Positions 15,014-60,914 of a stretch of 64,000 bases of DNA are shown piece after piece. Both the position numbers and the translations under genes were made by a program. Numbering within the stretch: position 1 is the stretch's first letter; the number at the start of each line of letters is the position of its first letter. The notes below the pieces were generated by a model, which was given only the letters and a program-made list of their open reading frames with translations, ran no database searches and was not told where the DNA came from. Origin of the DNA: Naegleria gruberi (taxonomy: Eukaryota); the NCBI GenBank assembly GCA_000004985.1, contig GG738850.1, one strand, 5' to 3'.

Positions 15014-16397
15014 ATGTCATCAGAAACAAAAGTTGTATCGGATACATCAGTGCCACTCTATCAGGTCGATGATACCAATAAATTGCAATGCTCTACACCA
15101 ACATCATCAACTATTCACTTGTTCACCAAGTCAATATTAACATCAAATAAGCAACAAATAATTGGTGATTTAAATAGTGAAAGTACTACTCAACAACATC
15201 CTATTGAACCTGGTAATATTCATTGTAGTAGATTAGCTTCCGATTTAAATCAAGCCTCCACAGTATACTTTATTAACAAATCTAAATTATTCAAAATTAA
15301 ATATGAATTACCTAGTAGTGAAGTAAATGTATGGAAACCAACCAAGAATGCTAAATTACCTTATCCTTTACTTATTTCCGATATTGATGTTACTAAAATT
15401 TATCAATCCACATTAGATGTTAATTTCCAAGGTATTGAAATCGATAAGAATAGAATTGGTTTAACTGATGATATGGGAAATATTTATATTTTAAATAACA
15501 CATTTTCTACTAGTAATAATGAGGAAGATGATGAGGAAACTGATAACAGTTCAAAGAAGAGAAAAGTTGACGAAAAGAGTACTATTCAATGTGTTTACAA
15601 TAATATTGATACAATTAAATATCATGTTAAAGGTCACACTTCACTTAAATTCCATCCAACTAATGAAGCTGTTATTATTAAGAGTACTTTTGAAACTAAG
15701 AACGTTTCTATTTTTGATATCAATAACCAAAAGAGCATATTTTCTGTTAACACAATGCAAAATCCAACCAAATTGCATACCTTTGAAATTCCACAATCAA
15801 ATAATACATTATTAGCAATTGGAGAATATAACAATGTTTCAATTTGGGATTTCAGAACAAACAAACCAGTTAATAGACTGACTAGAACTAGAGGAATTGT
15901 TTATGATATGGATATTACAACCAATGTTAAATGTGGTAAAAATAATTCTAATGCCTTATTGGGTGTTATTGGAAGTGACAGAACTGTCTACATGTATGAC
16001 ACTATGAAATGGTCTCCAATTCACAAGTGGCAAAATTGTTTGAAATATGCTGTAAGTAGACAATCTTTTGAAAGATTCTTTAATCAATGTATTATTATAG
16101 CCATCTTACTTATCCTTCTCAAATATTAATAAGGAATTGTGCTACGTTGCTGGTTTTGATAATAGTGAATTCAAATGTGGTAATTTCGTTGATCAAAAAC
16201 AACAAAGAAAGGGTAGAGGTCATGGTCTCTATGCTGACAATAGATGGATTGGTATGACTAAACCGAATGCGCAAGATACTATCGTTGGTATTAGTATGAA
16301 TGGTTCTTTATATGTTATTGAACATCCACACCGAATGGCTCCAAACTTGAATGATTTAGTTCCTTCTACAGAAGCTCAAGATGTCATGGACGAATAA
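15014..16397 (+). CDS. Hypothetical protein with WD40-like repeats, 2 exons (15014..16051, 16134..16397), about 433 aa
   Basis: An ORF ending artificially inside a GTAAGT intron (16052..16133, 82 nt) continues in frame as ...KWQNCLKYA|ELCYVAGFDNSEFKCGNF.... WD-like strands include NVSIWDFRTNKPV and DRTVYMYDT. Contains the NLS-like DNSSKKRK cassette at 15544-15567. Confidence 0.6.
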
Positions 16398-16416
16398 ATC
16401 AAACTATTTATTTCTA

Positions 16417-16865
16417 TCAATCCAGCTTTTTCATTGATAAGTGGTTAAGCAATTCCTCAAAATACCTGGAAAGTTTTGAACACAACAAAGTTTCCGATAG
16501 TTCTTTTTCTTTGATAAAGCTCATCAATCTTTCAATTGTATCCAATGTATTGGTTATGTAAAAACCTATATCGTCAAAATAGTTCTCATGTGTTTCAAAG
16601 TTAGCATAAATTATCTCAAAATCTTCTAAATTAGAAAATAAATTAAAGATTTGTTTATATAATTCGCATGAATCACATCGGGTTTCCTTTTGCATTGTGT
16701 AGGCTTGCATCGTATGCAATATGAATAATTGTGCAATGTTATGAAAATCACTCGTTTAAGCAATAGTGTTTTGTCTTTGAAATCCTCTGCTAGCATTTTT
16801 CTATTATTAACAAGCACACAATTCCACCAATATTCAAATTTGGTGTTGCAGAGCAAACTGAACAA
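16417..16865 (-). CDS. Possible small gene (two overlapping ORFs, model unresolved)
   Basis: Minus-strand ORFs of 79 and 100 aa overlap in different frames; a short intron may join them but no consensus donor was found. Confidence 0.2.
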
Positions 16866-17023
16866 CCAGAATTATGAAGTGTAAGCCAGTAATAATATAT
16901 TGGAGTGAATACACAATATCATCTGTTGAAAGGCAATTTCATTAGACAGGGTGAGCTTGGGGTCATGCAAAGACTTTCCAATTCAGAAGAAAGTTGATAT
17001 TACTATTTATTTGTTTTGGTCTT

Positions 17024-17302
17024 CTATTTAAAATAATACATTGCAACTACCAAGAAAAACATACTAAGTAAGGTTACTTGTAATCTGTTATTTCCATCCA
17101 CAATTGCTTCTAATAACTTATCATTGCTTTCTAATAACTTATCATTGCTTTCTAATAACTTATCATTGCTTTCTAACAACTTGGCATTGCTTTCTAACAA
17201 TTTGGCATTGCCTTCTTCCATAGTTTCTTTAAGGCTTTGGATTTGGGCTCTAACTGAGTGGTTGGATGATCCTCCTGATGAACTGCTTGTGTAGCCTTCC
17301 AT
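17024..17302 (-). CDS. Tail-anchored coiled-coil mini-protein, paralog 1 (92 aa) with 5 KLLESN(A/D) heptads
   Basis: MEGYTSSSSGGSSNHSVRAQIQSLKETMEEGN + (AKLLESN)x5 + ...LLSMFFLVVAMYYFK. The single C-terminal TM segment ends 2 residues before the stop. Paralogous to 18815..19051 and 19416..19631, with conserved 5' and 3' flanks. Confidence 0.6.
   Translation of the reverse strand: MEGYTSSSSGGSSNHSVRAQIQSLKETMEEGNAKLLESNAKLLESNDKLLESNDKLLESNDKLLEAIVDGNNRLQVTLLSMFFLVVAMYYFK
17105..17215 (-). repeat. 21-bp tandem repeat x5 (cttatcattgctttctaataa / cttggcattgctttctaacaa) encoding KLLESN[DA] heptads
   Basis: Direct inspection of 17101-17220; unit length 21 = one heptad. The paralogs carry 2 copies and about 1 copy respectively. 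Confidence 0.8.
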
Positions 17303-18814
17303 TTTTTTAAATTAAATATTATTTAAAAATAGAGAAACGCTCAAAACTTACCTTCTTCTTAAACACAATAAACGATGAGGAGTTGTAATGAAAAACTTAC
17401 ATCTTCCGAAAACATATCACCATTAGCGTGAAATGCATCAAGGTGAGAAGAGGAGCCCATTGTTGCAGAAGTACTATCACTTCCAGTAGATGATGTATTT
17501 TGGTTGTTTTTTGTTGTTTTGTTGGGGAAGGTTGTTCCTCAATAACTCACATTTAAGCAAAAAAATTCCACATCTAATGAAACACATGATGAAGCATGGA
17601 TGTTCCAACGACGCTATTGAGCAACTTTACAAAATCCACATCCAATTAAAACATGTTGTTTGTCTTCCTTACAATCGCTGCGAGATCCCTTAATATAACG
17701 CATCTGGTATCCTCACTGTTTTCACTTATCAAAAACGATTTTACAAGTCATCCACATAATCAAGGCAATACAGCCAACCTTAAAGACTCGGGAGGAATGG
17801 TAGCATAAATAATACTGCTAATACAAAGAAATGCTCAATGATCCTATCATTGTGTAATGACACAAAAATATGAAACGCAAGACTTAAACCCAACATATTT
17901 AGCTATAGCTTCCTTTTAGTGCTTTAGAAACGCGGTTTGGACATTCTCGCTTTCATAGGTTTCTTAAGGACAAAACATTAAGCTGACACCTTGACAAGAC
18001 TTCTCTTTCTTGATGGTATTTTTTTTGGACTTTCTTTTAAATATTAATTTTTACAATAAATATTTGTATCCTTAATATCCTTGACAGGAGCCAAAGGGCA
18101 AATATTTTGAGATGATAAATTGCCATGCCATTAAATATTATTTAACTTCGAGCTTAAGGATTGTAGTTGTTATCTGTGCATAATAGGAGACCGAACACTG
18201 CTATTATTTTGATTTGAAGAATTATTAATATTAAAAAAAACCTCATCAGCTGATTGGAAAAAACCAATATTCTTTCTCATTAATAAGAATACTCACTCAA
18301 AAAATTCAAAGGGGAAACGATGTCATAAGAGTTATTTTTAGTTTTTAAACTTTGTTCATATTAAATACTCGGTGAAAACAAAAGGAAGAAAAGTAAGGCA
18401 AGCTAAATTACTGAATGTGAGTATTACATATCTTAGAGTTTTACCAAGTGTCGTTTTCCAAATTCTACCAAGTTTTACACCCACTCTTCTAAAATTTGAT
18501 TAAAGACTCAGGGAAAACGATTCAAGTGATGGATTATGGTATTTGTGAAACGTACCCTAACTTCCGATAAAAGTGAGCCAATTCTATTGAAGGAAAGATA
18601 AGATACACTTGAGTTTGATTCATGAGAAGCTTTTAAGAAGGTTGATGAGGTAAATGAAACTAGTTTTGTTTCCAACGCACACTATTTTAGCCCACTCACC
18701 AAAAGGTTGGTAATTTCACCGAAACTATGGTTTTCACTACAAACTATTTTTAAGGCAGAAATGTTATCTCTAAAGATTAGAAGAATATCTATATTTATTC
18801 ACTTTTTTGGCCTT

Positions 18815-19051
18815 CTATTTAAAATAATACATTGTAATCACCAAGGAAAACATACTAAGTAAGGCTGCTAGTACTCTGTTATTCCCATCCTTAATTGCTT
18901 CTAATAACTTATCATTGCTTTCTAACAACTTGGCATTGCCTTCTAACAACTTAGTATTGCCTTCTTCCATAGTTTCTTTAAGGCTTTGGATTTGGGCTCT
19001 AACTGAGTGGTTGGATGATCCTCCTGATGAACTGCTTGCACTGTCTACCAT
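18815..19051 (-). CDS. Tail-anchored coiled-coil mini-protein, paralog 2 (78 aa)
   Basis: MVDSASSSSGGSSNHSVRAQIQSLKETMEEGNTKLLEGNAKLLESNDKLLEAIKDGNNRVLAALLSMFSLVITMYYFK. About 85% identical to paralog 1 outside the repeat. Confidence 0.6.
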   Translation of the reverse strand: MVDSASSSSGGSSNHSVRAQIQSLKETMEEGNTKLLEGNAKLLESNDKLLEAIKDGNNRVLAALLSMFSLVITMYYFK

Positions 19052-19415
19052 TTTTTATTAACTATTGTTTAAAAATAGAGAAATGCTCAAAACTAACCTC
19101 GTGGTCTAGTCCACGCACCTTAAATTGTAATGTAGGCTTAATTATTCAGTAATATTAGGTTCATCCATTGAAATATAATATTGAATGCAGTGACAAACCA
19201 TTTGTTTCGCACACATAATTTGCTAATTAACCTGAACAGAAACCCATATCTTAATCTATTATTTGAATACCTGAAATTTGCTCCGTTGTGATAGAAAACA
19301 ATTCAACTGATCCCTTATAGTTTCAATTTTAAATAAATCATTAACGATTTTTTAGTAAGAAAGGTTAGAACAAAAATTGGAAGAATATATTTATTCAGTT
19401 TGTTGGTTTGGCCTT

Positions 19416-19631
19416 CTATTTGAAAAAATACATTGCAACCACCAAGGAAAACATACTAAGGAAGGTTACTTGTAATCTGTTATTTCCTTCCACAATTGCT
19501 TCTAATAACTTATCATTGCTTTCTAGCAACTTAGTATTGCCTTCTTTCATAGTTTCTTTAAGGCTTTGGATTTGGGTTCTAACTGAGTGGTTGGATGATC
19601 TTCTTGATGAACTGCTTGTGTAGCCTTCCAT
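19416..19631 (-). CDS. Tail-anchored coiled-coil mini-protein, paralog 3 (71 aa)
   Basis: MEGYTSSSSRRSSNHSVRTQIQSLKETMKEGNTKLLESNDKLLEAIVEGNNRLQVTFLSMFSLVVAMYFFK. The 3' flank ttggccttctattt(a/g)aaa(t/a)aatacattg is conserved in all three copies. Confidence 0.6.
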   Translation of the reverse strand: MEGYTSSSSRRSSNHSVRTQIQSLKETMKEGNTKLLESNDKLLEAIVEGNNRLQVTFLSMFSLVVAMYFFK

Positions 19632-20039
19632 TTTTTATTTTAAATTGCTGTTCGTGATGTTCAGCTTGTAACTTTACAACTTATTTTGCCAAATACTTAC
19701 AAGTAATATCGGAGTTAGAGAAGCTCAATCTTAACACTGTTTTAATACAATTAGTAATGAAGGAGCCAAATACTTTGAAATGAAACAATTTACAAAACTT
19801 TATATCTCCAATGATATTCCTTAATTGAACCAATTCTTTACAAGTGGATGATGTAAATCAATTTAATTAATACTTTATTGTAAACTAACACCACTAACCT
19901 TTTGTTAAATTTCCTCTCTATTTGGTTCGACAGTATCAACTTTTCGGACCTCAATCACTGACACAAATCGAAACTCTACTGCACACAACTAAATTATCCG
20001 CTCGAATGTTATTGATAGCAAGAAAAAAAAACTTTTCAC

Positions 20040-22055
20040 ATGAAAACCCTATTGTCGTTAGCAGGCAGACTAACAAGTCTCACCATGCTGTTATTCTTAT
20101 ATTGTTTACTTGTTGCTTTAAACAATTCGACAGTAGAAGCATCCATTGATCCACTCTATAAAATGTCAACATTTATTGGTGGTGGCACATCACCCATTAC
20201 AAATGGCATACTCACTACAAATGCTACACTCTCTAGACCTAGTGGTTTAGCTTTATACAGAGGAGAAGTCTATCTAGTAGATTCTGCAAGAATTCTAAAA
20301 GTTAACAATCATAACAATTCCCTTACTATTATTGCTGATGTAAATGCAATGTTGAATAATCCATTTGGTATTTGTTTGAATGATGAAGGTGAAATTTTTA
20401 TTGTTGAGCGAGCTTCACATGTGGTTCGTAAAATTTTGACAAATGGTACAATTATTGTATTTGCTGGAATTGTTAATCAACAAGGTTATTCTGGGGATGG
20501 TGGTTTGGCTGTAAATGCAGCTCTTAATTGGCCATATGATGTAGCATGTGATTTAAAGACTGGTGATGTTTACATTTCAGATAATGAGAATCAACTTATT
20601 CGAAAGGTGTTCAAAAATGGAACTATTACAACAATTGCTGGATCTAGATCTGGAGGCACAACACAAGATGGATCTTTAGCCACCCAAACTGTAATTAATC
20701 GACCAATGATGATGTCTCTGAGTTCGAATGGTAATCTCTACTTTACTTCAAATATTTGTACAATTCGAAAGATCAGTACGAATCAAACTATTTCAACAGT
20801 TGCTGGCGATGGTCAAAATAATAATTATCGTAAAAATGACATTCTAGCTACATTAGTAACTCTGGATGTACCATTTGGAGTCGATGAAGGTCCATTTGGT
20901 GAATTGTACATTGCAGAAACTTACCTTAGTGCTATTCGAAAGGTTTCTCCAAATGGAATAATTTCAAAAATTGCTGGAACTTTCCAATCAGGAGTTTCAC
21001 TGAATACCGTTTTAGATGCTTCCAAAGCTCAAATAACCGATCCATATGATGTCATAGTTGATCCTTCTACTGGAATAGTTTACTTTTCCGAATATTCATC
21101 AGATGTTAAACGAGTTGCTAAATTGGAGCCATACTGTACATTTCCTTTTGAATTAATTAATGGAACATGTACTTACTCATGTTATGGAATTGGATATGAT
21201 GATGCAAGAGTTTGTGCTGGGCATGGAATTTGCCTTTCGAATAATACATGTCAATGTGAATCAGGATGGAAAGGTAATAATCAATGTTCCTTACCTTCAT
21301 GTGAATTATTGAATAATTGTACTGGAAATGGAATGTGTATTTCAAATAATACTTGTGAATGTAATTCCAAATGGAAACATATTGATTGTTCCATTAGTAT
21401 TTGTATTCCATATTTGAATTTAAATAGTCAATTACAATGTTCTCAAGATTTAAATAGTCAATTATTAACATTTAATGAATTACAATCAAATATTAATTTA
21501 AATCCAATTAATTTAAATGAAAATCAACAAATTACTTTTATTTTAGGTAATAATTTTACAAATAATTTGGAAAATTCAAAATATTTTATTAGTTCATCAA
21601 TTTCTCAATCAAATTTACAATTTTATTCAAATGTTACAAATTTAGTTTTACAAAATTCAAATTCTACATTCATTCAACTCCAATTATCAAATTCAATTCA
21701 ATTCCATTTCAAAAATATCGACATTGAACTGTCATCTTTCAATTATACATGTTTAAGATATGACTATTTGTTAAATAGATGGACAAATGAATCAATTTCT
21801 ACAATAATAGATTTATCCGTGAATGAAATTACATGTTCAACTAATTATTTATCTACATCAATTGTTATTCAGAGATATAGAATTATTGAAGTAGTTCCAT
21901 CAAAGTCAAATGTCATCCCAAAGGTATCGAATAGTAATGGTGGAACTGTTGTTAATCCAAAAGAATCTAATAGAGGAATTATTAGTCATGCAATTAGACT
22001 TGTCGGTTCAACAACTTTGACTGTTGTAATAATGATGATATTTAACATTTTGTAA
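20040..22055 (+). CDS. Secreted, C-terminally membrane-anchored protein with NHL repeats followed by EGF-like cysteine modules (teneurin/tenascin-like architecture)
   Basis: Signal peptide MLLFLYCLLVALNNSTVEA. At least five NHL-type repeats (GxxGYSGDGGLAVNAALNWPYDVACD..GDVYISDNENQLIRKV etc.). EGF-like CxxHGICLSNNTCQCESGWKGNNQC / CTGNGMCISNNTCECNSKWKHIDC. Asn-rich stalk with many NxT/S sites. C-terminal hydrophobic LVGSTTLTVVIMMIFNIL. Confidence 0.75.
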   Translation: MKTLLSLAGRLTSLTMLLFLYCLLVALNNSTVEASIDPLYKMSTFIGGGTSPITNGILTTNATLSRPSGLALYRGEVYLVDSARILKVNNHNNSLTIIADVNAMLNNPFGICLNDEGEIFIVERASHVVRKILTNGTIIVFAGIVNQQGYSGDGGLAVNAALNWPYDVACDLKTGDVYISDNENQLIRKVFKNGTITTIAGSRSGGTTQDGSLATQTVINRPMMMSLSSNGNLYFTSNICTIRKISTNQTISTVAGDGQNNNYRKNDILATLVTLDVPFGVDEGPFGELYIAETYLSAIRKVSPNGIISKIAGTFQSGVSLNTVLDASKAQITDPYDVIVDPSTGIVYFSEYSSDVKRVAKLEPYCTFPFELINGTCTYSCYGIGYDDARVCAGHGICLSNNTCQCESGWKGNNQCSLPSCELLNNCTGNGMCISNNTCECNSKWKHIDCSISICIPYLNLNSQLQCSQDLNSQLLTFNELQSNINLNPINLNENQQITFILGNNFTNNLENSKYFISSSISQSNLQFYSNVTNLVLQNSNSTFIQLQLSNSIQFHFKNIDIELSSFNYTCLRYDYLLNRWTNESISTIIDLSVNEITCSTNYLSTSIVIQRYRIIEVVPSKSNVIPKVSNSNGGTVVNPKESNRGIISHAIRLVGSTTLTVVIMMIFNIL

Positions 22056-25238: not shown

Positions 25239-26582
25239 TTACTTCTTGTTTGGTTGTTGATCTTCATAGACCTTAGTGACGATACCGGCACCAATGGTGA
25301 GACCGCCTTCTCTGACAGCAAAGCTCAAACCTTCAATAATAGCAACGTGGTTAATCAAAGAAACGTTGATCTTCTTCTTGTCACCTGGCATAGCCATACA
25401 CTTTTCACCTTCAGCGATATCCTTACCTTCTTCTGGGTAGATCTTCATCTTACCAGTAACGTCGGCAGTTCTGAAGAAGAATTGTGGTGAGAAACCATCA
25501 ACGAAAGCAGTACGTCTACCACCTTCTTCAGCAGTCAAAACGTAAATGTCAGCATCGAACTTTTGACGTGGCTTCAACAAACCAGGCTTACAGATAACTT
25601 GACCTCTCTTAATTTGCTTCTTATCAATACCTCTCAACAAGATACCCAAATTGTCACCAGCTTGACCTCTATCAACCAACTTGTGGAACATTTCAATACC
25701 AGTAACAGATGACTTGAGAGCAGTTGGAGCAAAACCAACAACTTCAACTTCAGCACCTAATTTGAGTTGACCTTGATCGACCTTACCAGTGGCAACAGTA
25801 CCTCTACCTGAGATAGTGAAAACACCTTCAACAGGCATCAAGAATGGCTTGTTAATATCTCTTTCTGGTTCTGGAATATCCTTATCAACAGCATCCATCA
25901 ACTTTTGAATTGCTTGAGTACCGATTTCAGAGCTGTCTCCTTCCAAACCCTTCAATGCAGAACCTCTGATAATACTAATGTTATCACCATCAAATCCGTA
26001 TTGTTTAACAGTATCTCTAATTTCTTCTTCAACCATTTCAATCATTTCAGCATCAGGAACCAAGTCGACCTTGTTCAAAAAGACGACAATATGCTTGATA
26101 CCGACTTGTTTACACAACAACAAATGTTCTCTAGTTTGGAGCATAGGACCATCGTCAGCGGAAATGACAAGGATGGAACCGTCCATTTGAGCAGCACCAG
26201 TAATCATGTTTTTAATGTAGTCAGCGTGTCCAGGACAGTCAATGTGGGCATAATGTCTAGTAGCGGTAGCATATTCAATGTGTGAAGTAGAAATGGTAAT
26301 ACCTCTTTGTTTTTCTTCTGGAGCTTTATCAATTTGATCGTAGGCCAAAAAGCTGTTAGCCTTTGGATCCAATTCATTCAAATATTTAGTAATAGCAGCA
26401 GTGAGTGTGGTTTTACCGTGGTCAACGTGACCGATAGTACCAATGTTGATGTGTGGCTTGCTTCTGTCGAACTTTTCCTTAGCAGCAAATCTAACTTGGT
26501 TAGTGTTCATCATTTTAGAACCACTCACCAAGACATTGGTCTTGAGTTGTTGTTTGATAATGTTTCTAGATGAAGAGAACAT
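25239..26582 (-). CDS. TUF1: Mitochondrial translation elongation factor Tu (nuclear-encoded), intronless
   Basis: P-loop [22 protein letters not shown] and the full EF-Tu domain II/III are conserved. An N-terminal extension of about 40 aa rich in S/R/K, consistent with a mitochondrial presequence. 447 aa. Confidence 0.97.
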
Positions 26583-27412: not shown

Positions 27413-30400
27413 ATGAACCCAAACAATCGACCACCTCATCCTACAACAGCAGGAGGTTATTATTCTTCATCATCTGGAAATAATAATAACGTGGTCGGCG
27501 GTGGTGGTTTTAATCAACAACAAAATCACTCTTCATCAGGAATTCCTCCACATAATAGACAAGGCTTTCCTACGGGACAAGGAAGAACAAATCAAAATGG
27601 CCCAATTGTACAAAATAGACAACAACATCCACCAAGAAATGTAAATAATCCTAATACAAATCCAAATAATATTCCATCAACAATGCAACAAAATAGAAAA
27701 AAACATCCATCAGGTAGTCAATCCTCATATCCAACACAACCTCATCAATCATATCATAACAATACAACAGGAAGTGGATTTAGTACACAAGCTGGACATA
27801 AAGCAACGTTTGGAAAAAAAGGTCAAGAAGTTGTTGTTGAACAATTATCAGCAAAATTAGGATTTCCGGATGTCTTTCTATGTGAACAAAATTCTAGTAG
27901 ACCGGTCATGGAATTGTCTTTTACACCTAGTACTGCTCGTGATGGTTATGTTGACAAGTCATTTTCATATATTGATCGTGAACCAATTGATTCTCATGGA
28001 ACTCACTTCTTTAATAATGATTTTTATAATTTATTAGAAAAATCTGAACAAACTTTAAGGGATGAGTACAAGACTTTTTCAACAAACAAAACAAGGGAAG
28101 AAATGAAACAAAGATTCGAAAATGCCTACAATTCTTGCAGTTGTACAGCTAATAATTCCTTCTTCCCAAAACTCACAGATACAGGTACTATGTTCAAAGC
28201 CCTTGCTGGAAGACCTGATGAGCAAAAAAGATCATCCCTTGCATCTTCAAGAACATCTCTTAGAGAATTGGCATCAAAACTTTCTAGATATTATGTTAAA
28301 CCTAACTTCTTTGAACTTTTAGCACAAAACAATATTCCATTCTTCAGAGCCTTATGGTACACTAAAATTCTTATTAGAGACATTAATACCAACATTACAA
28401 ATGTAAAGGATCTAGCACAAGATTTAACAACCAAGTTTTGTGACTACTTGCTTACATCTTGTAACGATGACAGTACAGATCCTAAAAAGAAGAACTCAAT
28501 TGTGTATACCATCAACTTTTTATCCTATTGCCTTGAAGAGAATTTATTGAATGAAAATGTTTTAGGACAAAGGCTATTAGAAATTTTAGAAATCAAGTTT
28601 GGTATCAAACCAAAAGCAAGCAAGGATACACCTCTCATGGATGCATACTTTTTCTCATTACTTTATGTTAAAACAAGTGATCAAATTTATCAACAACTGT
28701 CAACTACAATCCAATCATCTAAAAAGGTTGGCTCGGTGATCAAATTTTATGTATTACAATTATTTAAATTATTTATGATGCATTCTTCCGATCCAAAATT
28801 TACATTTGAAATTTTTAGAAGACTAAATCCTGGACAACAACAACTTTCATTAGACAGTGTTAAAAATCTATTTTGCAAAATTAAGGATGATATTTATGCC
28901 ATCAATGTACTTGATAGACATAATTGTAACATTCCAGAGTTATATAATATTCTCTTGAATAACAAGGAAGTTGGTGTTCAACTCATATCTACCATTTGCA
29001 AGTGGGCTATTACTCCAAAACGATTCCAAAACTATAGGCCATATATTGCAGGTACCTTGGTGAATAACTTTATCAAACAAAATCCTACAATGAAGAAACA
29101 AGTAGAAGATACCTTATTCAAAGAAGTTCTAAATTATTCAGAGGAGCCTACTCCAGATACTTACAAAAATATGTTGAAACTATTCAATGAGCTAATTCTT
29201 CAAAATAACTTTTCCATTAGTGAATATATCAAATATCTTACATCTAGAGGTTTTAATGTAGCTAAGACAGATGAATTTAACACTAGGCACACCAATATTC
29301 TCAAAAATTTGCCCTCATATGATCCTAACACAAAGAATAAGATTTACTCTAAACTCTATGGCACCAAACATGAAATTGTGAGGAAAAACCAGCAAACTGA
29401 AACTGAAATCCAAGAAAATATTTTCAAACTTATTAATGGAGGCAGTGATCATAATATTTCCTCCATTATTGAAAGTATGACTCTTTTACCAGAAAATGGA
29501 ATGCAGTTTGAAATTACACAACAAATAGCTGAGCATGTAAAGACTATGGATCTTGCATATTTATCGGAACAAACAATAGATAGTATTTTGGCAATTATGA
29601 TCTCAGTATCCAATCTTAGAGCTTTTAGAGATATTGTGTATAATATTACTACCAAACTCATCTCTGGAGAATTTAAATCTCCTAATCTAGAAATTAAGAT
29701 GTTTTCTATTATTAAGAATAGTCTCCAGCTCTTCATTTCTTTAGACGATTCAGATATCATTGATATATTCCAAAAACGATTCAAAACAACAAACAACAGA
29801 AATATTCAATCTATTATCCATAGATACATTACCGAAATATCAACAACTCCAAATGCTGACCCTTTCAAAACAAAAATAACCAAATTTACCAACGATTGTA
29901 ATGTCATTCCTGCTCCAATTAATATCGAGCAATCGCCTACAATCCACCCATTTACACAGTATATACAAAGCCAAGATATTATTTTGATACCGTCCAACAT
30001 CTTGGTTTCCGAATTAACCAAATCCCCTACCAAATTCTCCAACGATCAACTTAAACATTTAATTGAGGTACTATTCGAAAAATTCCAAAAGCATAGAGTA
30101 GACACTTACATAACAGTCTTGAGAGATATGTATACATTTAGTCATCTATTATCTGATACTTCAATTATTGAATGCTTTAAGGATTTCATTATTTCAACAC
30201 TTGACAGTACTCAGTACATTAGAGAAAAGCACTCTTCACTCATTCTATTCTGTATGAAAGCTGTAACTTGTGGTGTTCTCTCTGGATACACCTTCCTCAA
30301 TCATATATTATTTAACGTATTTGATAATCTCAAGTCTAAGGTTGCAACTATTTCTAAGCCTAATCCACAAGTCCAAGCCATTACATCTATTCATGCTATG

Positions 30401-32128
30401 TTATCATCTACAAAGACCAGTATCTTCCAACATGTAAACTTTATAAGAGTTTTCTCGAACTTTTCCAGATGCTTATCAAAAGAAAGAATAACTACTCTCG
30501 CTAATAATTGTGGTATATCTGAGGAAGTGGAAGCTGTTGACAGAGAAATTTATGAAGACGTCAAGACCACACTTCTCTATGATTTCCTTGGCCCTATAGA
30601 AGCAAAAGAAACCATCCACAAGATGTCAATTTCTTGCAAGAGTATTCATGATAACGTCAAATCAAGCAAGAAAAGTACAAAAGATATCTTTGCATTCAGT
30701 TCTCTTGTCTATGAAGCCATGATAGAAATACTATTGGATTATCTTTCTAATGAAAAGTCTTTGCAGGACATTAGTCGTACATTGTCCTACACTCAAGATT
30801 GTTTAGGACCACTTTACGAACTTCCATCTCTTCAAACCAAGCCAAAAGAAGGGGATGGCACAGGTAAAAGCAATTCCAAAGATAGTGATTATGGTAACAA
30901 ATATCAAGCCATCACAACTTTGGTTGCCAACTTGTGTAAACCATTTTCAACAATCAGAGATATGGTTCCTGAGAAGCTATTCTCCTTCCTTAGTCAAAGT
31001 ACAAGTATTAATGACTATCTTCAATTTATAATGTCTCTCTCCAATCAGAGTGACAAGTGGAGAATAGCGTTAGACTCCCAACTTTTATTCTTATTTATGT
31101 TTACTTGGAATAGAAGAAAGGCACTCACAAAAGAACAATACCATCACTTTGTCGCAAGAAAAGGTCAGGAAAATTCCTTCTACTTTTATGCCAAATCACT
31201 TTTACTTACCTCATTCTACCCACCTTTCTCTGAGCTACAAGATGTTATTTTAGATCATTTCAAATTATCAATCAACTATAGCGAAAAACGTCAACAAGAT
31301 ATTGAAGCTCTCTTACCTATTGTTGAAGAGCTTATTCGACTCGATTTTTCCAAAGCAGAAACAGCCTGCAAATGTATTCTGGATGCCATTCAAGCCATCT
31401 CCAATCCCTCCTCCTCACAATCCTCTACCCCTGGCACTCCTACTCCACATTCATTCCCTTCCACTCGTGAAAGACTTACTACTTGTTTATTATGTCTTAA
31501 AGAAATTATTTTCTCCTCTCCACTTTTGGAATCACATGAAGATAAATTTGGAGAAAGAAAGAGAACCACTACAGTTCCACAAATCAAATCAATTTTAATT
31601 AATTTATGTACCAACAAGATTTTGCCATCAGTATTTAACACACCTATCCAAAAACCAGAAGACGTAGCATTATATGATATTTATTATTTAATTTATGGAA
31701 TGTTAGCCAAGTTAAAGATACCCCAAGAAGAATTGAATAAGGAATTTGAAAAATTATTCCAAAAAGAGAATAATCTACAAGTCTCTAATCCAAGAACTAT
31801 ACAAGTTGGAACACCTGTCAGCACACCAACCTCCAGTAGAAGAACTCCAACACCTGGTGGTGCCAGCAAAATGTCTCCAATTATTAGCCCTCAACAATCA
31901 CCAGTTCCAATGTCTCCACAAGTTGCTACCGTTAGACAAGAGCAAAACAGGGTCATCAGCAGCTGGTTTGTAATTGAGGATTACGTTTCCAATTGTTCTC
32001 ATTGTAACTCTTGCCATGGTAATTTAACTCCTGCACGTTTCCAGGGTAAAGTTGTTAAGAAGACTGAATTGATATTTGCCAAAAAGCCAGAAACCGTCAA
32101 CTCCAGCAATCCTTTCCAACCACATTAA
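27413..32128 (+). CDS. Large (1,571 aa) hypothetical nuclear protein with an N-terminal Q/N/P-rich disordered region; function unassigned
   Basis: Single continuous ORF preceded by a tataaata element at about 27363. The N-terminal 130 aa are low complexity (NNNVVGGGGFNQQQNHSS..., PPRNVNNPNTNPNN); the rest is predicted helical. A +1-frame ORF with a KKRK NLS continues past the stop (see findings). Confidence 0.7.
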   Translation: MNPNNRPPHPTTAGGYYSSSSGNNNNVVGGGGFNQQQNHSSSGIPPHNRQGFPTGQGRTNQNGPIVQNRQQHPPRNVNNPNTNPNNIPSTMQQNRKKHPSGSQSSYPTQPHQSYHNNTTGSGFSTQAGHKATFGKKGQEVVVEQLSAKLGFPDVFLCEQNSSRPVMELSFTPSTARDGYVDKSFSYIDREPIDSHGTHFFNNDFYNLLEKSEQTLRDEYKTFSTNKTREEMKQRFENAYNSCSCTANNSFFPKLTDTGTMFKALAGRPDEQKRSSLASSRTSLRELASKLSRYYVKPNFFELLAQNNIPFFRALWYTKILIRDINTNITNVKDLAQDLTTKFCDYLLTSCNDDSTDPKKKNSIVYTINFLSYCLEENLLNENVLGQRLLEILEIKFGIKPKASKDTPLMDAYFFSLLYVKTSDQIYQQLSTTIQSSKKVGSVIKFYVLQLFKLFMMHSSDPKFTFEIFRRLNPGQQQLSLDSVKNLFCKIKDDIYAINVLDRHNCNIPELYNILLNNKEVGVQLISTICKWAITPKRFQNYRPYIAGTLVNNFIKQNPTMKKQVEDTLFKEVLNYSEEPTPDTYKNMLKLFNELILQNNFSISEYIKYLTSRGFNVAKTDEFNTRHTNILKNLPSYDPNTKNKIYSKLYGTKHEIVRKNQQTETEIQENIFKLINGGSDHNISSIIESMTLLPENGMQFEITQQIAEHVKTMDLAYLSEQTIDSILAIMISVSNLRAFRDIVYNITTKLISGEFKSPNLEIKMFSIIKNSLQLFISLDDSDIIDIFQKRFKTTNNRNIQSIIHRYITEISTTPNADPFKTKITKFTNDCNVIPAPINIEQSPTIHPFTQYIQSQDIILIPSNILVSELTKSPTKFSNDQLKHLIEVLFEKFQKHRVDTYITVLRDMYTFSHLLSDTSIIECFKDFIISTLDSTQYIREKHSSLILFCMKAVTCGVLSGYTFLNHILFNVFDNLKSKVATISKPNPQVQAITSIHAMLSSTKTSIFQHVNFIRVFSNFSRCLSKERITTLANNCGISEEVEAVDREIYEDVKTTLLYDFLGPIEAKETIHKMSISCKSIHDNVKSSKKSTKDIFAFSSLVYEAMIEILLDYLSNEKSLQDISRTLSYTQDCLGPLYELPSLQTKPKEGDGTGKSNSKDSDYGNKYQAITTLVANLCKPFSTIRDMVPEKLFSFLSQSTSINDYLQFIMSLSNQSDKWRIALDSQLLFLFMFTWNRRKALTKEQYHHFVARKGQENSFYFYAKSLLLTSFYPPFSELQDVILDHFKLSINYSEKRQQDIEALLPIVEELIRLDFSKAETACKCILDAIQAISNPSSSQSSTPGTPTPHSFPSTRERLTTCLLCLKEIIFSSPLLESHEDKFGERKRTTTVPQIKSILINLCTNKILPSVFNTPIQKPEDVALYDIYYLIYGMLAKLKIPQEELNKEFEKLFQKENNLQVSNPRTIQVGTPVSTPTSSRRTPTPGGASKMSPIISPQQSPVPMSPQVATVRQEQNRVISSWFVIEDYVSNCSHCNSCHGNLTPARFQGKVVKKTELIFAKKPETVNSSNPFQPH

Positions 32129-43240: not shown

Positions 43241-44311
43241 TCAATTCAAATTGCAACCAATTGCCTTGTTTGTTTGCACCTTAATTGAATGTAAAATTGG
43301 AGTTAATTTGGCAGTTAACTTGGATGGAACCTTTCCATTGGCCTTTTTTGATTCATCCATCAATAATACCAAGTCAACTGGAATTGCAACTATTGGAATG
43401 GCACTTTTAATCATCAATCCTGTTAAACTCATAATACCTGTGTGGCCATTAGTCAATCCATCAGATTTATCCAAATCTTGATGCTTGTGGCCTGTCAGAG
43501 ATTCAACAAATTGAAGAACGTTGACATTTCTATTACCAATTTTCATAACTCTACTATCAATGTATGGATCAGTCAACCTTTGTTCATAAATCTTTCTAAT
43601 CATTGCATTTACTGCTTGAGTATCCCTTTGTAAGAGTTCTTGAATGGACTTGGCTGATTTCTTGGCATGTTTCCATTCAGCAATTGATGCAGCAACTGTT
43701 GCTGTTGTTCCCACACCAACACAACCAATACCAGCACCTGAGGCAATTAATGAAACACCAAAAGTGAAAGGAGCAGCTACGATACCACCAAGAATCAAGG
43801 AAGCTCCAACAATATTGGTTTTTGTACCTTTCACTTTGGTCTTTGCTGTACTTTGTTGTTTCTTTTCTAATGATTGGATTAAATTGTCCAGCATTTTAAT
43901 GATTTCCAATCGTTGGACAAGCCACTCATTTGCAGATTGTTCAATGACAGCAAATCCACAATTTGGATTATCAAAATTGGTACTTTCAAATGTTGGGGTT
44001 TGAGGAAGAATTACATTGGTCTGGAAATTTGTTTGTTGACCACCTTTTTCATAGCTACTATTACTGGTTGTGGATTGAATTGGTTTAAAGTTATTGGTTA
44101 GTTGTAATGGTTGGGGAGTTATTGGTTGTTGTACAAATTGAGGATTAGAAGTGATAACTGGAAAATATTGAGCGTTTGGTTGTGGATACATGTATTGAGG
44201 AGGATTAGGTGGGTAAAGTTGATATTCTGGTGGTTGATAATTCACTCCAGGTTCTGTAATGTTTGGTTGAGTAGAGAAATGTGGATATTGAGGAGAAACT
44301 TGTTGATGCAT
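43241..44311 (-). CDS. Hypothetical membrane protein: P/Q/Y-rich N-terminus with a PPxY motif, central glycine-zipper hydrophobic hairpin, helical C-terminal domain (356 aa)
   Basis: N-terminus HQQVSPQYPHFSTQP...YQLYPPNPPQYMYPQP contains PPQY. The core IVGASLILGGIVAAPFTFGVSLIASGAGIGCVGVGTTATVAASIA is a GxxxG-rich hairpin. Confidence 0.55.
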   Translation of the reverse strand: MHQQVSPQYPHFSTQPNITEPGVNYQPPEYQLYPPNPPQYMYPQPNAQYFPVITSNPQFVQQPITPQPLQLTNNFKPIQSTTSNSSYEKGGQQTNFQTNVILPQTPTFESTNFDNPNCGFAVIEQSANEWLVQRLEIIKMLDNLIQSLEKKQQSTAKTKVKGTKTNIVGASLILGGIVAAPFTFGVSLIASGAGIGCVGVGTTATVAASIAEWKHAKKSAKSIQELLQRDTQAVNAMIRKIYEQRLTDPYIDSRVMKIGNRNVNVLQFVESLTGHKHQDLDKSDGLTNGHTGIMSLTGLMIKSAIPIVAIPVDLVLLMDESKKANGKVPSKLTAKLTPILHSIKVQTNKAIGCNLN

Positions 44312-48460: not shown

Positions 48461-49921
48461 ATGTCACAACATCATCACAACAATACTAGACCCAATTTAT
48501 TAGAAAATATTCCTTTGGAAGTTTGGCAGAGTTGTATTTTTGAATATTGGCTCGGACCCATTCATGAAATCAATCAGTGTTTGGATAAATTGAATATTGA
48601 TGAAATTGAAAAGTTTAAAAATGTAATTTATTCAAAGATTATTGATGGATTGGATTTGATGAGTGTGCGGAGTGTTCATAAACTTTGTTATTTGGTTTCT
48701 AGGAGATTTAGAGAATTGTTTATAAAGGAAATGGACGAGTTTTGGTTGAAGGTATCGAATATGTTGGAGATGGCTGTTTATTGGAGAAGGTATGAAACTT
48801 CAAAAGGTGCTACATTAGCACAGGGTGATATTACGGCCATAGATTCTATTCCCTATGTGCAAATGCAAAAATTAATTGAGGCCACTGAAATGAATCTAAA
48901 TAGAGAATATACTGATATTATTGATCCATCCATGTGTAGAGAACACTGGCATAATTCAAATATTAAAAAAAAGAATGATGTAAATACGGAGCTGATGCAT
49001 CAGGAATTTGTAAAGAGATTTGAAAAATTAATCATCTCTCAAGAAAAATACGAAAAGATTAGAAAAGTAACTCAACTCGATAGCTATGATTTGTTTTTAC
49101 ACAAGTCATTTATAATATCATTGGACATGATTTCATATTTCGATAGTGAAAGGTCTAATTCAGGTTATTCTAGTTTTAGCACTGAGACTCAATGTCAATT
49201 ATTCAATAAGGGGCTCTTTTCCTTAAAACCTAACCCTAACTCTCTTGGATTAATTATTTCACATGCAGAAAACTCAGAGGAAGTACTTAACATTGATTCA
49301 AAATTCATAGCTATTTCAATTTCAAACTCTGAATGGGCAGAAAAGCAGTTTACAAACATTCCAAATACTGTACAATATCTATGTCTTGAATTCAATCATC
49401 ACTCCTATTCAGGGTATAAGAGCTTGATAGATAAACGCCTATTTGATGAGAATGATCCTGTATTTCCCAATGTTCGTGATCTAACCATTAGAATCGGATA
49501 TCCTGAAGATGATGACTATTTCCTCCACAATTTAGTCATTGAAAAGAATATTCTTTCTGGAATAACAAGGACGAGATTTCCAAAATTGATAAGAATTTCA
49601 ATTTGTGGCTTTGGATCAATGGAATCTCTGTTAGATTGTGAAATTTTGAGCCAATTACCTTATGTGGAAATTATTCAATTCTCTCATGGATATGATTACG
49701 AATTGACTCGTCATTGGTCAGAAAGAAAAGTTCATGAATTAGTAACAAGACATCAAGATTCATTGATTCATCATTTGGTAGTTCATGCATGTATTAGTAG
49801 AATCAATAATGATGCTGATTATGGTTCAATTAAGGAATATTACAATCTCAGTAAGCCAAAGTTTGTGGCTTCCATTTCTCATTCCTCATTCAATGAATAT
49901 TACGAAAATTGCTTCGAATAA
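48461..49921 (+). CDS. F-box-like protein (486 aa)
   Basis: N-terminal LENIPLEVWQSCIFEYWLGPI is F-box-like and an N-terminal His run is present. The rest is unassigned, with an LRR-like periodicity late in the protein (...LTIRIGYPEDDDYFLHNLVIEKNILSGITRTRFPKLIRISICGF...). Confidence 0.55.
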   Translation: MSQHHHNNTRPNLLENIPLEVWQSCIFEYWLGPIHEINQCLDKLNIDEIEKFKNVIYSKIIDGLDLMSVRSVHKLCYLVSRRFRELFIKEMDEFWLKVSNMLEMAVYWRRYETSKGATLAQGDITAIDSIPYVQMQKLIEATEMNLNREYTDIIDPSMCREHWHNSNIKKKNDVNTELMHQEFVKRFEKLIISQEKYEKIRKVTQLDSYDLFLHKSFIISLDMISYFDSERSNSGYSSFSTETQCQLFNKGLFSLKPNPNSLGLIISHAENSEEVLNIDSKFIAISISNSEWAEKQFTNIPNTVQYLCLEFNHHSYSGYKSLIDKRLFDENDPVFPNVRDLTIRIGYPEDDDYFLHNLVIEKNILSGITRTRFPKLIRISICGFGSMESLLDCEILSQLPYVEIIQFSHGYDYELTRHWSERKVHELVTRHQDSLIHHLVVHACISRINNDADYGSIKEYYNLSKPKFVASISHSSFNEYYENCFE

Positions 49922-60729: not shown

Positions 60730-60914
60730 TCAACCTCACACTTAAAATAACTATTAACATTCTTCCCAATATCTACGGTCAGGTTCTCGACGGAATTGCA
60801 ACCGATTGTGAATTATTTACATTGAGTAAGGTTTGAGGTTAATGAGAGGCTAATAATAATAAAATAATAAAAATAGATTAGAATTATAAAATAATAAAAA
60901 TAGATTAGAAAAAA

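What the first reader, a model, noticed from the sequence alone, without database searches (positions are those of the whole stretch)
17024..19631. Tandem array of three paralogous mini-genes for tail-anchored coiled-coil proteins, unrecognised family
Three same-strand ORFs of 71-92 aa share a Ser-rich N-terminus, an amphipathic coiled coil and a C-terminal TM segment ending 2 residues before the stop, which is tail-anchored topology. The duplication unit also includes a conserved 5' element (gt(a/t)agttttgagc(g/a)tttctctatttttaaa about 40 nt upstream of the ATG) and a 3' flank of about 45 nt. This points to recent local gene amplification of a family I cannot match to SNAREs or any known tail-anchored class.
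Basis: seen in the sequence. Interest (0 to 1): 0.65.

Follow-up and report, generated by a model that had tools for sequence, protein, structure and literature searches.

The report
Unannotated tail-anchored mini-gene triplet in Naegleria
Three recently duplicated, unannotated short ORFs in the Naegleria gruberi genome look like genes for tiny membrane-anchored helical proteins that have no relatives anywhere, but whether they are expressed is unproven, so this is a modest orphan-gene curiosity.

Summary
Three minus-strand ORFs of 92, 78 and 71 aa are 89-93% identical in DNA. They differ in length only by the number (5, 3, 2) of a 21-nt unit encoding the heptad N-x-K-L-L-E-S. Each encodes a Ser-rich disordered N-terminus, one long heptad-patterned helix, and an 18-residue hydrophobic tail followed by a single Lys.

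The window is Naegleria gruberi NEG-M nuclear DNA. The ORFs are not annotated. No homologue was found in 5.8 billion proteins, in an exhaustive HMMER scan of 1.84 billion representatives, in Pfam, PDB or Rfam, in metagenome or viral contigs, or in about 72 kb of other Naegleria DNA.

Evidence for real genes: codon usage, the AAAAAATG start context, a conserved AATAAA after the stop, no non-repeat indels inside the ORFs, and a unique architecture among the 96 ORFs of this size in the window. Evidence against: dN/dS of 0.4-1.3, no deficit of amino-acid changes, and no expression data.

Best reading (about 0.5): a young, lineage-restricted family of tail-anchored coiled-coil microproteins, probably inserted post-translationally into the ER. 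They are not SNAREs. The 5' element is in only two copies, and the proposed 5'UTR intron is not supported. Interest is low to moderate.

The parts
17024..17302 (-). Copy A ORF, 92 aa: Ser-rich N-terminus, helix with 5 heptad units, 18-aa hydrophobic tail LQVTLLSMFFLVVAMYYF followed by K and a TAG stop
   Evidence: codon-usage LLR 0.34
17103..17216 (-). 21-nt tandem array inside copy A (5.5 units, 93% matches), encoding N-(A/D)-K-L-L-E-S heptads
17322..17352 (-). 5' element of copy A (GGTAAGTTTTGAGCGTTTCTCTATTTTTAAA), -50 to -20 from the ATG. It contains a TATA-like TATTTTTAAA and is a candidate core promoter (inference).
   Evidence: (D4)
17006..17011 (-). AATAAA motif 13-18 nt after the stop of copy A, a candidate poly(A) signal (inference)
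18815..19051 (-). Copy B ORF, 78 aa: 3 heptad units, tail VLAALLSMFSLVITMYYF followed by K. It is the most diverged copy, with clustered changes at codons 2-5, 47 and 53-56 (numbered on the 71-codon core shared by all three copies).
   Evidence: LLR 0.29
18894..18965 (-). 21-nt tandem array inside copy B (3.5 units)
19068..19098 (-). 5' element of copy B (GGTTAGTTTTGAGCATTTCTCTATTTTTAAA), -47 to -17 from the ATG
   Evidence: (D4)
18794..18799 (-). AATAAA motif 16-21 nt after the stop of copy B
19416..19631 (-). Copy C ORF, 71 aa: 2 heptad units, tail LQVTFLSMFSLVVAMYFF followed by K. It lacks the A/B 5' element, and its upstream region is shared divergently with the NHL/EGF gene at 20040.
   Evidence: LLR 0.18
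19495..19545 (-). 21-nt tandem array inside copy C (2.5 units)
19390..19395 (-). AATAAA motif 21-26 nt after the stop of copy C
16985..17353 (-). Full homologous unit A as delimited by blastn against unit B
18742..19099 (-). Full homologous unit B (5' boundary set by homology to A, 3' boundary by homology to C)
19343..19645 (-). Full homologous unit C

Best explanation
The three ORFs are independent, intronless, unannotated genes of a young family restricted to N. gruberi or a narrow Naegleria lineage. They encode 8-10 kDa tail-anchored microproteins, and the family arose by local tandem duplication. Proposed mechanism (shown: sequence anatomy; inferred: everything cellular). The only hydrophobic segment is the last 18 residues plus one Lys, so it leaves the ribosome only after termination. 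It must therefore be captured post-translationally. With a TMD GRAVY of about 1.9-2.0 and a tail charge of +1, the likeliest route is GET3/TRC40-type delivery to the ER, with the mitochondrial outer membrane as the alternative. This leaves the N-terminus in the cytosol. The cytosolic part forms one helix continuous with the TMD. Its a/d positions (V17, I21, L24, M28, then the L-L pairs with Asn and Ser/Gly at the interface) favour parallel self-association into a short coiled-coil stalk. Slippage of the 21-nt unit changes the stalk length in whole heptads (2, 3 or 5, about 1 nm each). The Ser-rich disordered N-terminus is the likely interaction or phosphorylation end. The family fits the pattern described in yeast, where young or de novo proteins from T-rich DNA converge on a C-terminal TMD that lets the ancient post-translational insertion pathways accept them.
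For: The copies are clear paralogues. Codon-usage LLR per codon is 0.34, 0.29 and 0.18. Real-gene fragments from the window average 0.28 (sd 0.11) and 18 spurious ORFs average -0.08 (max 0.19). The overlapping plus-strand ORFs score about -0.03. All three copies keep the ATG, the frame and the stop. The only indels in more than 213 aligned nt are whole 21-nt units, whereas the first 30 nt after the stop are already 73% identical with an indel in every pair. All nine TMD substitutions keep the segment free of charged residues and proline, and seven of the nine exchange one hydrophobic or aromatic residue for another. The AAAAAATG start context and an AATAAA 12-20 nt after the stop are shared with confirmed genes in the window. 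These are the only 3 of 96 ATG-ORFs of 50-130 aa in the window with a clean tail-anchored architecture. AlphaFold2 predicts a single helix at 13-91 with pLDDT 86, and the heptad register holds. There are no homologues anywhere and none in about 72 kb of N. fowleri, N. lovaniensis or related contigs. Targeting rules come from PMC5450235. The precedent for young proteins with a C-terminal TMD comes from PMC11384008 and PMC7005711.
Against: There are no expression data of any kind. dN/dS is 0.64, 0.42 and 1.28. There were 20 amino-acid changes against 21.3 expected under random placement. All three ORFs stay intact in 17% of neutral simulations, and in 8% they stay intact with uncharged TMDs, so purifying selection is not demonstrated. 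The negative control for codon usage is small (n=18), and the score partly reflects amino-acid composition. T-rich DNA readily encodes hydrophobic tails by chance. JGI did not annotate the ORFs. Copy C lacks the putative promoter element. ER targeting and oligomerisation are pure inference from rules derived in yeast and mammals.
Confidence: 0.5

Rival explanations
1. Fortuitous ORFs in recently duplicated non-coding DNA. A ~300-370-nt AT-rich segment containing a 21-nt minisatellite was duplicated twice in a gene-poor, rearranged 3.6-kb stretch. The reading frame is open by chance and has not yet had time to decay. No protein is made, or it is only a translated proto-gene with no function.
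For: dN/dS is about 1 for the B-C pair and 0.4-0.6 for the others, and substitutions are spread evenly over codon positions. Amino-acid changes equal random expectation, and ORF survival has P=0.17 under neutrality. There are no homologues and no annotation. The region also holds a decayed LRR fragment. The overlapping plus strand is also open for 48-71 codons. No exact-protein record exists in any assembly.
Against: Codon usage is gene-like on the minus strand only. Homology ends close to the ORF on both sides, and the 3' flank is much more diverged (73%, with indels) than the ORF (89-93%, no non-repeat indels). The start context and AATAAA are canonical in all three. TMD substitutions are all conservative. 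The architecture is unique among 96 size-matched ORFs.
Confidence: 0.33
2. The three units are repeated exons of one larger minus-strand gene. Splicing from a GTATGT donor inside each TM-coding part to the AG just after each 'ATGG' joins C->B->A in frame. The product would be a 211-aa protein with three coiled-coil modules and one terminal TMD.
For: The chain is in frame and open (636 nt). Every unit carries the same GTATGT and the AG at position 6-7. GTAAGT-type donors and short introns are normal in this genome.
Against: The acceptors are preceded by A-rich tracts that are only 30-40% pyrimidine, against 60% for the verified intron. The introns would be about 400 and 1560 nt, against 49 nt for the verified neighbour. 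The in-frame join follows automatically from homology once one junction is in frame, which has a prior of 1 in 3. Each unit keeps its own A-rich ATG context, full TMD, stop and AATAAA.
Confidence: 0.05
3. Remnant of a mobile or repeat-element ORF. The ~330-nt unit would be a small non-autonomous element, or a fragment of a transposon gene, dispersed locally.
For: The unit is short with sharp boundaries, and the 5' and 3' extents differ between pairs. It lies in a rearranged, gene-poor stretch.
Against: No terminal inverted repeats or target-site duplications flank the units. Only weak AT-rich inverted matches were found. There are no other copies in 64 kb. There are no protein or DNA relatives in any collection, including viral contigs. 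No poly(A) tail follows the AATAAA. The pattern of shared flanks fits unequal crossing-over in a tandem array.
Confidence: 0.05
4. Highly divergent members of a known tail-anchored family, for example Bet1/Sft1-type or brevin-type SNAREs, or Sec61-beta-like subunits.
For: Size, cytosolic helix and C-terminal TMD resemble minimal SNAREs. There is a weak Synaptobrevin Pfam alignment spanning most of the model for copy A (E=0.37, 11 bits).
Against: The score is far below the Pfam cut-off (26.4 bits), and copies B and C give no hit. The helix ahead of the TMD is 37, 44 or 58 aa and varies by whole heptads, which is incompatible with a fixed 16-layer, ~53-residue SNARE motif. No SNARE appears in the exhaustive or PDB searches.
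Confidence: 0.03

Closest known systems
Young or de novo emerging yeast proteins with a C-terminal transmembrane domain (Vakirlis et al. 2020, PMC7005711; Houghton et al., PMC11384008)
   Same: Both are small and lineage-restricted, with no homologues. Both are encoded in T-rich DNA and have a single C-terminal TMD, which would allow post-translational ER insertion. dN/dS is not clearly below 1.
   Different: De novo origin is not shown here, because no orthologous non-coding locus could be recovered. This family has already triplicated and carries a regular heptad coiled coil generated by a 21-nt repeat. The organism is a heterolobosean amoeboflagellate, and nothing is known about expression or fitness effect.
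Minimal tail-anchored SNAREs (Bet1/Sft1, synaptobrevin-type)
   Same: About 70-140 aa, with a cytosolic heptad helix leading directly into a C-terminal TMD and a very short luminal tail.
   Different: No significant match to SNARE or Synaptobrevin profiles. The helix length varies by whole heptads and is too short in two copies. There is no identifiable 0-layer, and the repeats have Asn/Ser at interface positions.
Coiled-coil tail-anchored adaptors such as Mff, and other small tail-anchored proteins (Sec61-beta, Fis1-class adaptors)
   Same: The topology class is the same: a cytosolic N-terminal part and a single C-terminal anchor. Mff has a heptad coiled coil adjacent to the TMD. Sec61-beta has a Ser-rich, disordered N-terminus. 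(These comparisons rest on my own knowledge.)
   Different: There is no sequence similarity, and the proteins here are much shorter than Mff. No functional motifs are recognisable.
Bacterial and archaeal heptad-repeat proteins hit in the searches (P0013, P0016, P0022)
   Same: They share the same or a near-identical heptad (SNAKLLE, GKLLES, NNKLWES) repeated in tandem.
   Different: They have no TMD and unrelated N-terminal parts, and come from prokaryote-type contexts. The similarity is confined to the low-complexity repeat and is convergent.

Membership tests
Tail-anchored (TA) membrane protein class | A single TMD at the extreme C-terminus, with a luminal tail too short for co-translational recognition (fewer than about 30 residues) | tested here: met
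   An 18-aa segment with KD 1.87-2.01 ends one residue before the stop in all three copies. It is helical in the AF2 model.
Tail-anchored (TA) membrane protein class | No N-terminal signal peptide and no other hydrophobic segment | tested here: met
   The highest 18-aa KD window outside the tail is -0.16 to -0.28.
Tail-anchored (TA) membrane protein class | Post-translational, chaperone-mediated insertion (GET/TRC40, EMC, SND or spontaneous), with the N-terminus cytosolic | not testable with these tools
   This needs expression, fractionation or protease protection, and GET3 dependence. The ER prediction rests only on GRAVY of about 1.9-2.0 and tail charge +1, judged against the rules in PMC5450235.
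SNARE (Bet1/Sft1/brevin type) | A SNARE motif recognised by the Pfam SNARE or Synaptobrevin profile above the gathering score | tested here: not met
   Only copy A hits Synaptobrevin, at E=0.37 and 11.1 bits against a cut-off of 26.4. Copies B and C give no hit.
SNARE (Bet1/Sft1/brevin type) | A fixed-length ~53-residue, 16-layer heptad motif with a central Q/R 0-layer | tested here: not met
   The helical region ahead of the TMD is 58, 44 or 37 aa and differs by whole 7-aa units between paralogues.
Parallel coiled coil | A heptad periodicity of hydrophobic a/d residues along a continuous helix | tested here: met
   The register S-V-R-A-Q-I-Q / S-L-K-E-T-M-E / E-x-N-x-K-L-L holds through all copies. 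AF2 models a single helix with pLDDT above 90. The interface in the repeats is atypical (L, L, N, S/G).
Parallel coiled coil | Actual self-association or a defined oligomeric state | not testable with these tools
   Only monomer prediction was available.
Orphan or de novo gene | No detectable homologue outside a narrow lineage | tested here: met
   There were zero true hits in 5.8e9 proteins, in 1.84e9 representatives read exhaustively, in JGI metagenome and IMG/VR contigs, in Pfam and in PDB. The caveat is that short proteins lose power in such large databases.
Orphan or de novo gene | An orthologous non-coding sequence in outgroup species (proof of de novo birth) | tested here: inconclusive
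   Loci around both nearest anchors (EF-Tu and the WD40 gene) were fetched from N. fowleri, N. lovaniensis and two unnamed contigs. Synteny is not conserved, and no similar DNA or ORF is present.
Orphan or de novo gene | Evidence of transcription and translation | not testable with these tools
   No N. gruberi RNA-seq was accessible. The exact proteins are absent from assemblies, but even N. gruberi EF-Tu has no Logan record, so this carries no information.
Protein-coding gene under purifying selection | dN/dS clearly below 1 between paralogues | tested here: not met
   Values are 0.64, 0.42 and 1.28, from 14-24 substitutions per pair. The simulation shows no deficit of amino-acid changes.

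The most novel reading that the evidence does not exclude
A gene family caught shortly after birth. A Naegleria gruberi-specific tail-anchored coiled-coil microprotein arose de novo from AT-rich non-coding DNA together with a 21-nt minisatellite, in a rearranged intergenic stretch. It has already been triplicated and is diversifying, with stalk length set by heptad number and clustered changes at the N-terminus and at the helix/TMD junction. This would extend the 'C-terminal TMD first' route of de novo protein emergence from yeast to a deeply divergent eukaryote, and would add repeat slippage as the generator of a coiled coil.
Probability: 0.2. Interest if true: 0.55.

Novelty: new member of a known kind. 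Interest (0 to 1): 0.27.

Why it matters
If expressed, these would be unannotated Naegleria microproteins with no relatives. They would be a small but clean example of how lineage-specific membrane proteins arise and expand. The single C-terminal TMD makes them acceptable to the conserved post-translational insertion machinery. A 21-nt repeat supplies a coiled coil whose length changes in whole heptads. Practically, the case shows that the N. gruberi annotation misses short intronless genes. If they are not expressed, the locus is ordinary duplicated intergenic DNA.

Tried and rejected
- **Pfam on all three proteins:** only sub-threshold coiled-coil noise.
- **Word-indexed search of 5.8e9 proteins at E<=0.01 and E<=10:** nothing related. 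The two weak hits share only the heptad.
- **Exhaustive hmmsearch of 1.84e9 representatives:** four weak hits, all unrelated repeat proteins.
- **Metagenome and viral contig scans:** no relatives.
- **PDB profile search:** only designed helical repeat proteins.
- **Fold search:** not run, because a single long helix gives meaningless matches.
- **Rfam over 16300-20100:** no RNA family.
- **Exact-protein look-ups for A, B and C:** not on record. This carries no information, because the N. gruberi scaffold is not in that index.
- **Synteny through mitochondrial EF-Tu (N. fowleri, N. lovaniensis, a Logan contig, a JGI contig):** synteny ends after one neighbouring gene, and no homologue is present.
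- **Synteny through the adjacent WD40 gene (N. fowleri, an ENA contig):** the neighbours differ (small LRR, DUF2418) and no homologue is present.
- **Upstream-exon models for copy A:** the ATG at 17460 with its GTAAGT donors leads to an early stop or the wrong frame (reasoned).
- **5'UTR intron:** rejected for copy A, which has no AG acceptor.
- **Mobile-element hallmarks:** no terminal inverted repeats or target-site duplications.
- **Failed scripts:** the first flank-alignment script gave degenerate alignments in some pairs and then crashed, and the first simulation timed out. Both were redone.
- **Literature search for Naegleria tail-anchored proteins:** nothing relevant.
Full report
**What the window is.** Exact-sequence look-ups of neighbouring long ORFs identify the window as nuclear DNA of Naegleria gruberi NEG-M, on a 707,703-bp scaffold. 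The matches are mitochondrial EF-Tu EFC48780 at 25239-26582(-), a Med12-like protein EFC48647 at 27413-32128 and EFC48652 at 48461-49921. GC content is about 32% throughout. The region is gene-dense, and many genes lack introns.

**Checking the observation.** The three ORFs exist exactly where stated, all on the minus strand.
- Copy A: 17024-17302, 92 aa.
- Copy B: 18815-19051, 78 aa.
- Copy C: 19416-19631, 71 aa.

They are unmistakable paralogues. blastn E-values are 4e-92, 3e-81 and 9e-63. DNA identity across the ORF is 89-93%, and protein identity to copy A is 82-87%. tblastn and blastn find no further copy in the 64 kb.

The length differences are entirely explained by 5.5, 3.5 and 2.5 copies of a 21-nt tandem unit. 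That unit encodes the heptad N-(A/D/T)-K-L-L-E-(S/G).

Each protein has the following parts:
- a Ser-rich N-terminus (SSSSGGSSNHS);
- a region in a consistent heptad register (SVRAQIQ / SLKETME / EGNxKLL ...);
- a GNNR junction;
- an 18-residue hydrophobic segment (Kyte-Doolittle 1.87-2.01), followed by one Lys and then the TAG stop.

AlphaFold2, run on the three-sequence alignment, gives disorder for residues 1-12 and one continuous helix for 13-91, with mean pLDDT 86.

Two details of the finding need correction. First, the 5' element is shared only by A and B: 91% identity over -50..-1, against about 50% (background) for C. Second, only about 30 nt of 3' flank is shared by all three, at about 73% identity with indels. 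About 80 nt is shared by B and C only. This staggered pattern of shared flanks fits successive unequal crossovers in a small tandem array.

**Are they genes?** The evidence in favour is as follows.
- A codon-usage log-likelihood ratio was trained on 19 long ORFs of the window (11,397 codons). It scores 0.34, 0.29 and 0.18 per codon for A, B and C.
- That lies within the distribution of real-gene fragments (mean 0.28, sd 0.11).
- It lies above all or nearly all of 18 spurious ORFs (mean -0.08, max 0.19).
- The plus-strand ORFs overlapping the same DNA score about -0.03.
- Inside the ORFs the only indels are whole 21-nt units. Just outside, the sequence diverges quickly and acquires indels.
- All three copies have the genome's typical AAAAAATG start context and an AATAAA 12-20 nt after the stop. 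Several confirmed genes in the window have the same features.
- Of 96 ATG-ORFs of 50-130 aa in the window, these are the only three with a hydrophobic tail at the extreme C-terminus and no other hydrophobic stretch.
- All nine substitutions inside the TMD keep it free of charged residues and proline, and most are hydrophobic-for-hydrophobic exchanges.

The evidence against, or neutral, is as follows.
- dN/dS is 0.64 (A-B), 0.42 (A-C) and 1.28 (B-C), and substitutions are spread over all codon positions.
- When the 29 observed substitutions are placed at random on the consensus, 21.3 amino-acid changes are expected and 20 are observed.
- In that simulation all three ORFs stay intact 17% of the time. 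They stay intact with uncharged TMDs 8% of the time.
- So constraint on the protein is suggested but not demonstrated.
- The copies are young enough (about 10% diverged) that intact frames alone prove little.
- No expression data were reachable. The exact proteins are not on record in any assembly, but neither is the N. gruberi scaffold, so this absence carries no information.

**Gene structure.** The annotated WD40 gene next door has a verified 49-nt intron (16052-16100, GTAAGT...TATAG), so GTAAGT is indeed the local donor consensus. However, copy A has no AG between its GTAAGT and the ATG. Copy B's GTTAGT...AATAG would be only 36 nt. Homology between A and B begins exactly at this motif and is absent further upstream (41% identity at -100..-51), so there is no conserved upstream exon. 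The element contains TATTTTTAAA at roughly -30 to -20, and the simplest reading is a core promoter. That reading is an inference.

I also tested the scenario in which the units are exons of a larger gene. A chain C->B->A is in frame and would give a 211-aa protein. It uses the GTATGT inside each TM-coding part and the AG immediately after each ATGG. Against it, the acceptors follow A-rich tracts (30-40% pyrimidine, against 60% in the real intron). The introns would be about 400 and 1560 nt. Each unit also keeps its own start context, TMD, stop and AATAAA. I give this scenario about 5%.

**Relatives elsewhere.** None were found.
- Pfam gives only sub-threshold coiled-coil noise. The best SNARE-type hit is Synaptobrevin for copy A, at E=0.37 and 11 bits against a cut-off of 26.4. 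Copies B and C give nothing.
- The profile found nothing at E<=0.01 among 5.8 billion proteins. That collection includes the N. gruberi, N. fowleri, N. lovaniensis and Willaertia proteomes.
- At E<=10 it returned only a bacterial-type protein ending in ESNTKLLESNAKLLESNAKLLEE and a Nif11-type leader peptide. Neither has a TMD.
- An exhaustive HMMER pass over 1.84 billion representatives gave four weak hits. All are unrelated proteins with their own heptad or other repeats.
- JGI metagenome contigs and IMG/VR gave no confirmed relative.
- PDB returned only designed helical repeat proteins.
- Rfam found nothing.

At the DNA level I fetched the neighbourhoods of the two nearest conserved anchors in other Naegleria. 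These were EF-Tu (loci L002, L004 and L005) and the adjacent WD40 gene (L007, L008 and L009). Synteny ends after one gene next to EF-Tu. The WD40 orthologue is followed by a small LRR gene and a DUF2418 gene in N. fowleri and in an unnamed relative. Neither of those genes is present in the window region. No mini-gene-like sequence or ORF occurs in these loci, by tblastn, by HMM or by architecture. The family is therefore lineage-restricted as far as can be seen. Positional orthology could not be assessed, and de novo origin is not proven.

**Repeat-element alternative.** Only weak AT-rich inverted matches occur near the units, with no convincing terminal inverted repeats. No poly(A) tail follows the AATAAA. 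There are no dispersed copies in the window. The 3.6-kb stretch between the WD40 gene and the NHL/EGF gene is otherwise devoid of convincing ORFs. It does contain one decayed repeat of the RNI-type LRR family, at 19738-19815.

**Most likely mechanism.** The sequence anatomy is shown. Everything that follows is inferred.
- The hydrophobic segment is the last 19 residues, so a translated product would have to be inserted post-translationally with the N-terminus in the cytosol.
- A TMD GRAVY of about 1.9-2.0 and a tail charge of +1 fall on the ER side of the published rules. In yeast, ER tail-anchored proteins have GRAVY above 1.75, and low tail charge favours the ER (PMC5450235). The mitochondrial outer membrane is the alternative.
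- The cytosolic helix is continuous with the TMD and has a regular heptad. That favours parallel self-association into a stalk whose length differs by whole heptads between paralogues.
- The Ser-rich tip is the likely regulatory or interaction end.
- The closest precedent is the finding that young de novo yeast proteins, encoded in T-rich DNA, converge on a C-terminal TMD. [quoted passage not shown]
- They are not SNAREs. The profile test fails, and a helix that varies by heptads (37, 44 or 58 aa) is incompatible with a fixed 16-layer motif.

**Verdict.** The tail-anchored coiled-coil architecture, the recent amplification and the lack of any known family all hold. It is overstated on the shared 5' element, on the intron and on gene status.

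My estimates are:
- about 0.5 that these are expressed tail-anchored microprotein genes of a young orphan family;
- about 0.33 that they are fortuitous or non-functional ORFs in duplicated intergenic DNA;
- small probabilities for the exon, mobile-element and divergent-SNARE readings.

Orphan short ORFs are common in protist genomes, and nothing here points to an unusual mechanism, so interest is low to moderate. A single RNA-seq mapping would settle most of the question.

Noticed in passing
window 19738-19815 (+): A single decayed repeat unit (CFNTISNEGAKYFEMKQFTKLYISND) of the RNI-type LRR family. It matches the internal 72-nt repeats of the LRR gene at 59041-60729 (blastn 4.9e-9, tblastn E=0.004). 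It lies between copy C and the NHL/EGF gene and is a likely pseudogene relic.
   Followed up: partly
window 43241-44311 (-): This 356-aa ORF is identical to EFC35539, which sits on a separate 5,345-bp N. gruberi scaffold. It also belongs to a longer 488-aa model (EFC48784) on the main scaffold. This suggests assembly redundancy (a haplotig) or competing gene models.
   Followed up: no
window 15014-16397 (+), intron 16052-16100: The WD40-repeat gene (EFC model P0017, 444 aa) has one 49-nt intron (GTAAGT...TATAG). Its orthologues in N. fowleri and in an unnamed ENA relative are followed by a small LRR gene and a DUF2418 gene, both absent here. Local gene order is therefore not conserved between Naegleria species.
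   Followed up: partly
window 20040-22055 (+): A 671-aa single-exon ORF with a signal-peptide-like N-terminus, teneurin-type NHL repeats (about 171-nt periodicity), teneurin-like EGF domains and a C-terminal TMD. The exact sequence is not in the protein collection, so the annotated model probably differs.
   Followed up: no
window 16417-16719 (-): A 100-aa ORF lies immediately downstream of the WD40 gene on the opposite strand, the same strand as the mini-genes. Its status is unknown, and it was not examined for coding potential or homology.
   Followed up: no
protein P0022 (Logan/ENA contig, 105 aa); P0016 (143 aa): Prokaryote-type proteins carry the same tandem heptad as copy A (ESNAKLLESNAKLLE, HGKLLESQGKTLE ... 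KLLEAIL) but have no TMD. This looks like convergent use of an x-x-K-L-L-E-S heptad.
   Followed up: no
window 60855-60914 (+), upstream of the ORF at 60915: The 60 nt before the ATG contain a direct duplication of about 27 nt (ataaaataataaaaatagattagaa, twice). It was seen while comparing start contexts.
   Followed up: no
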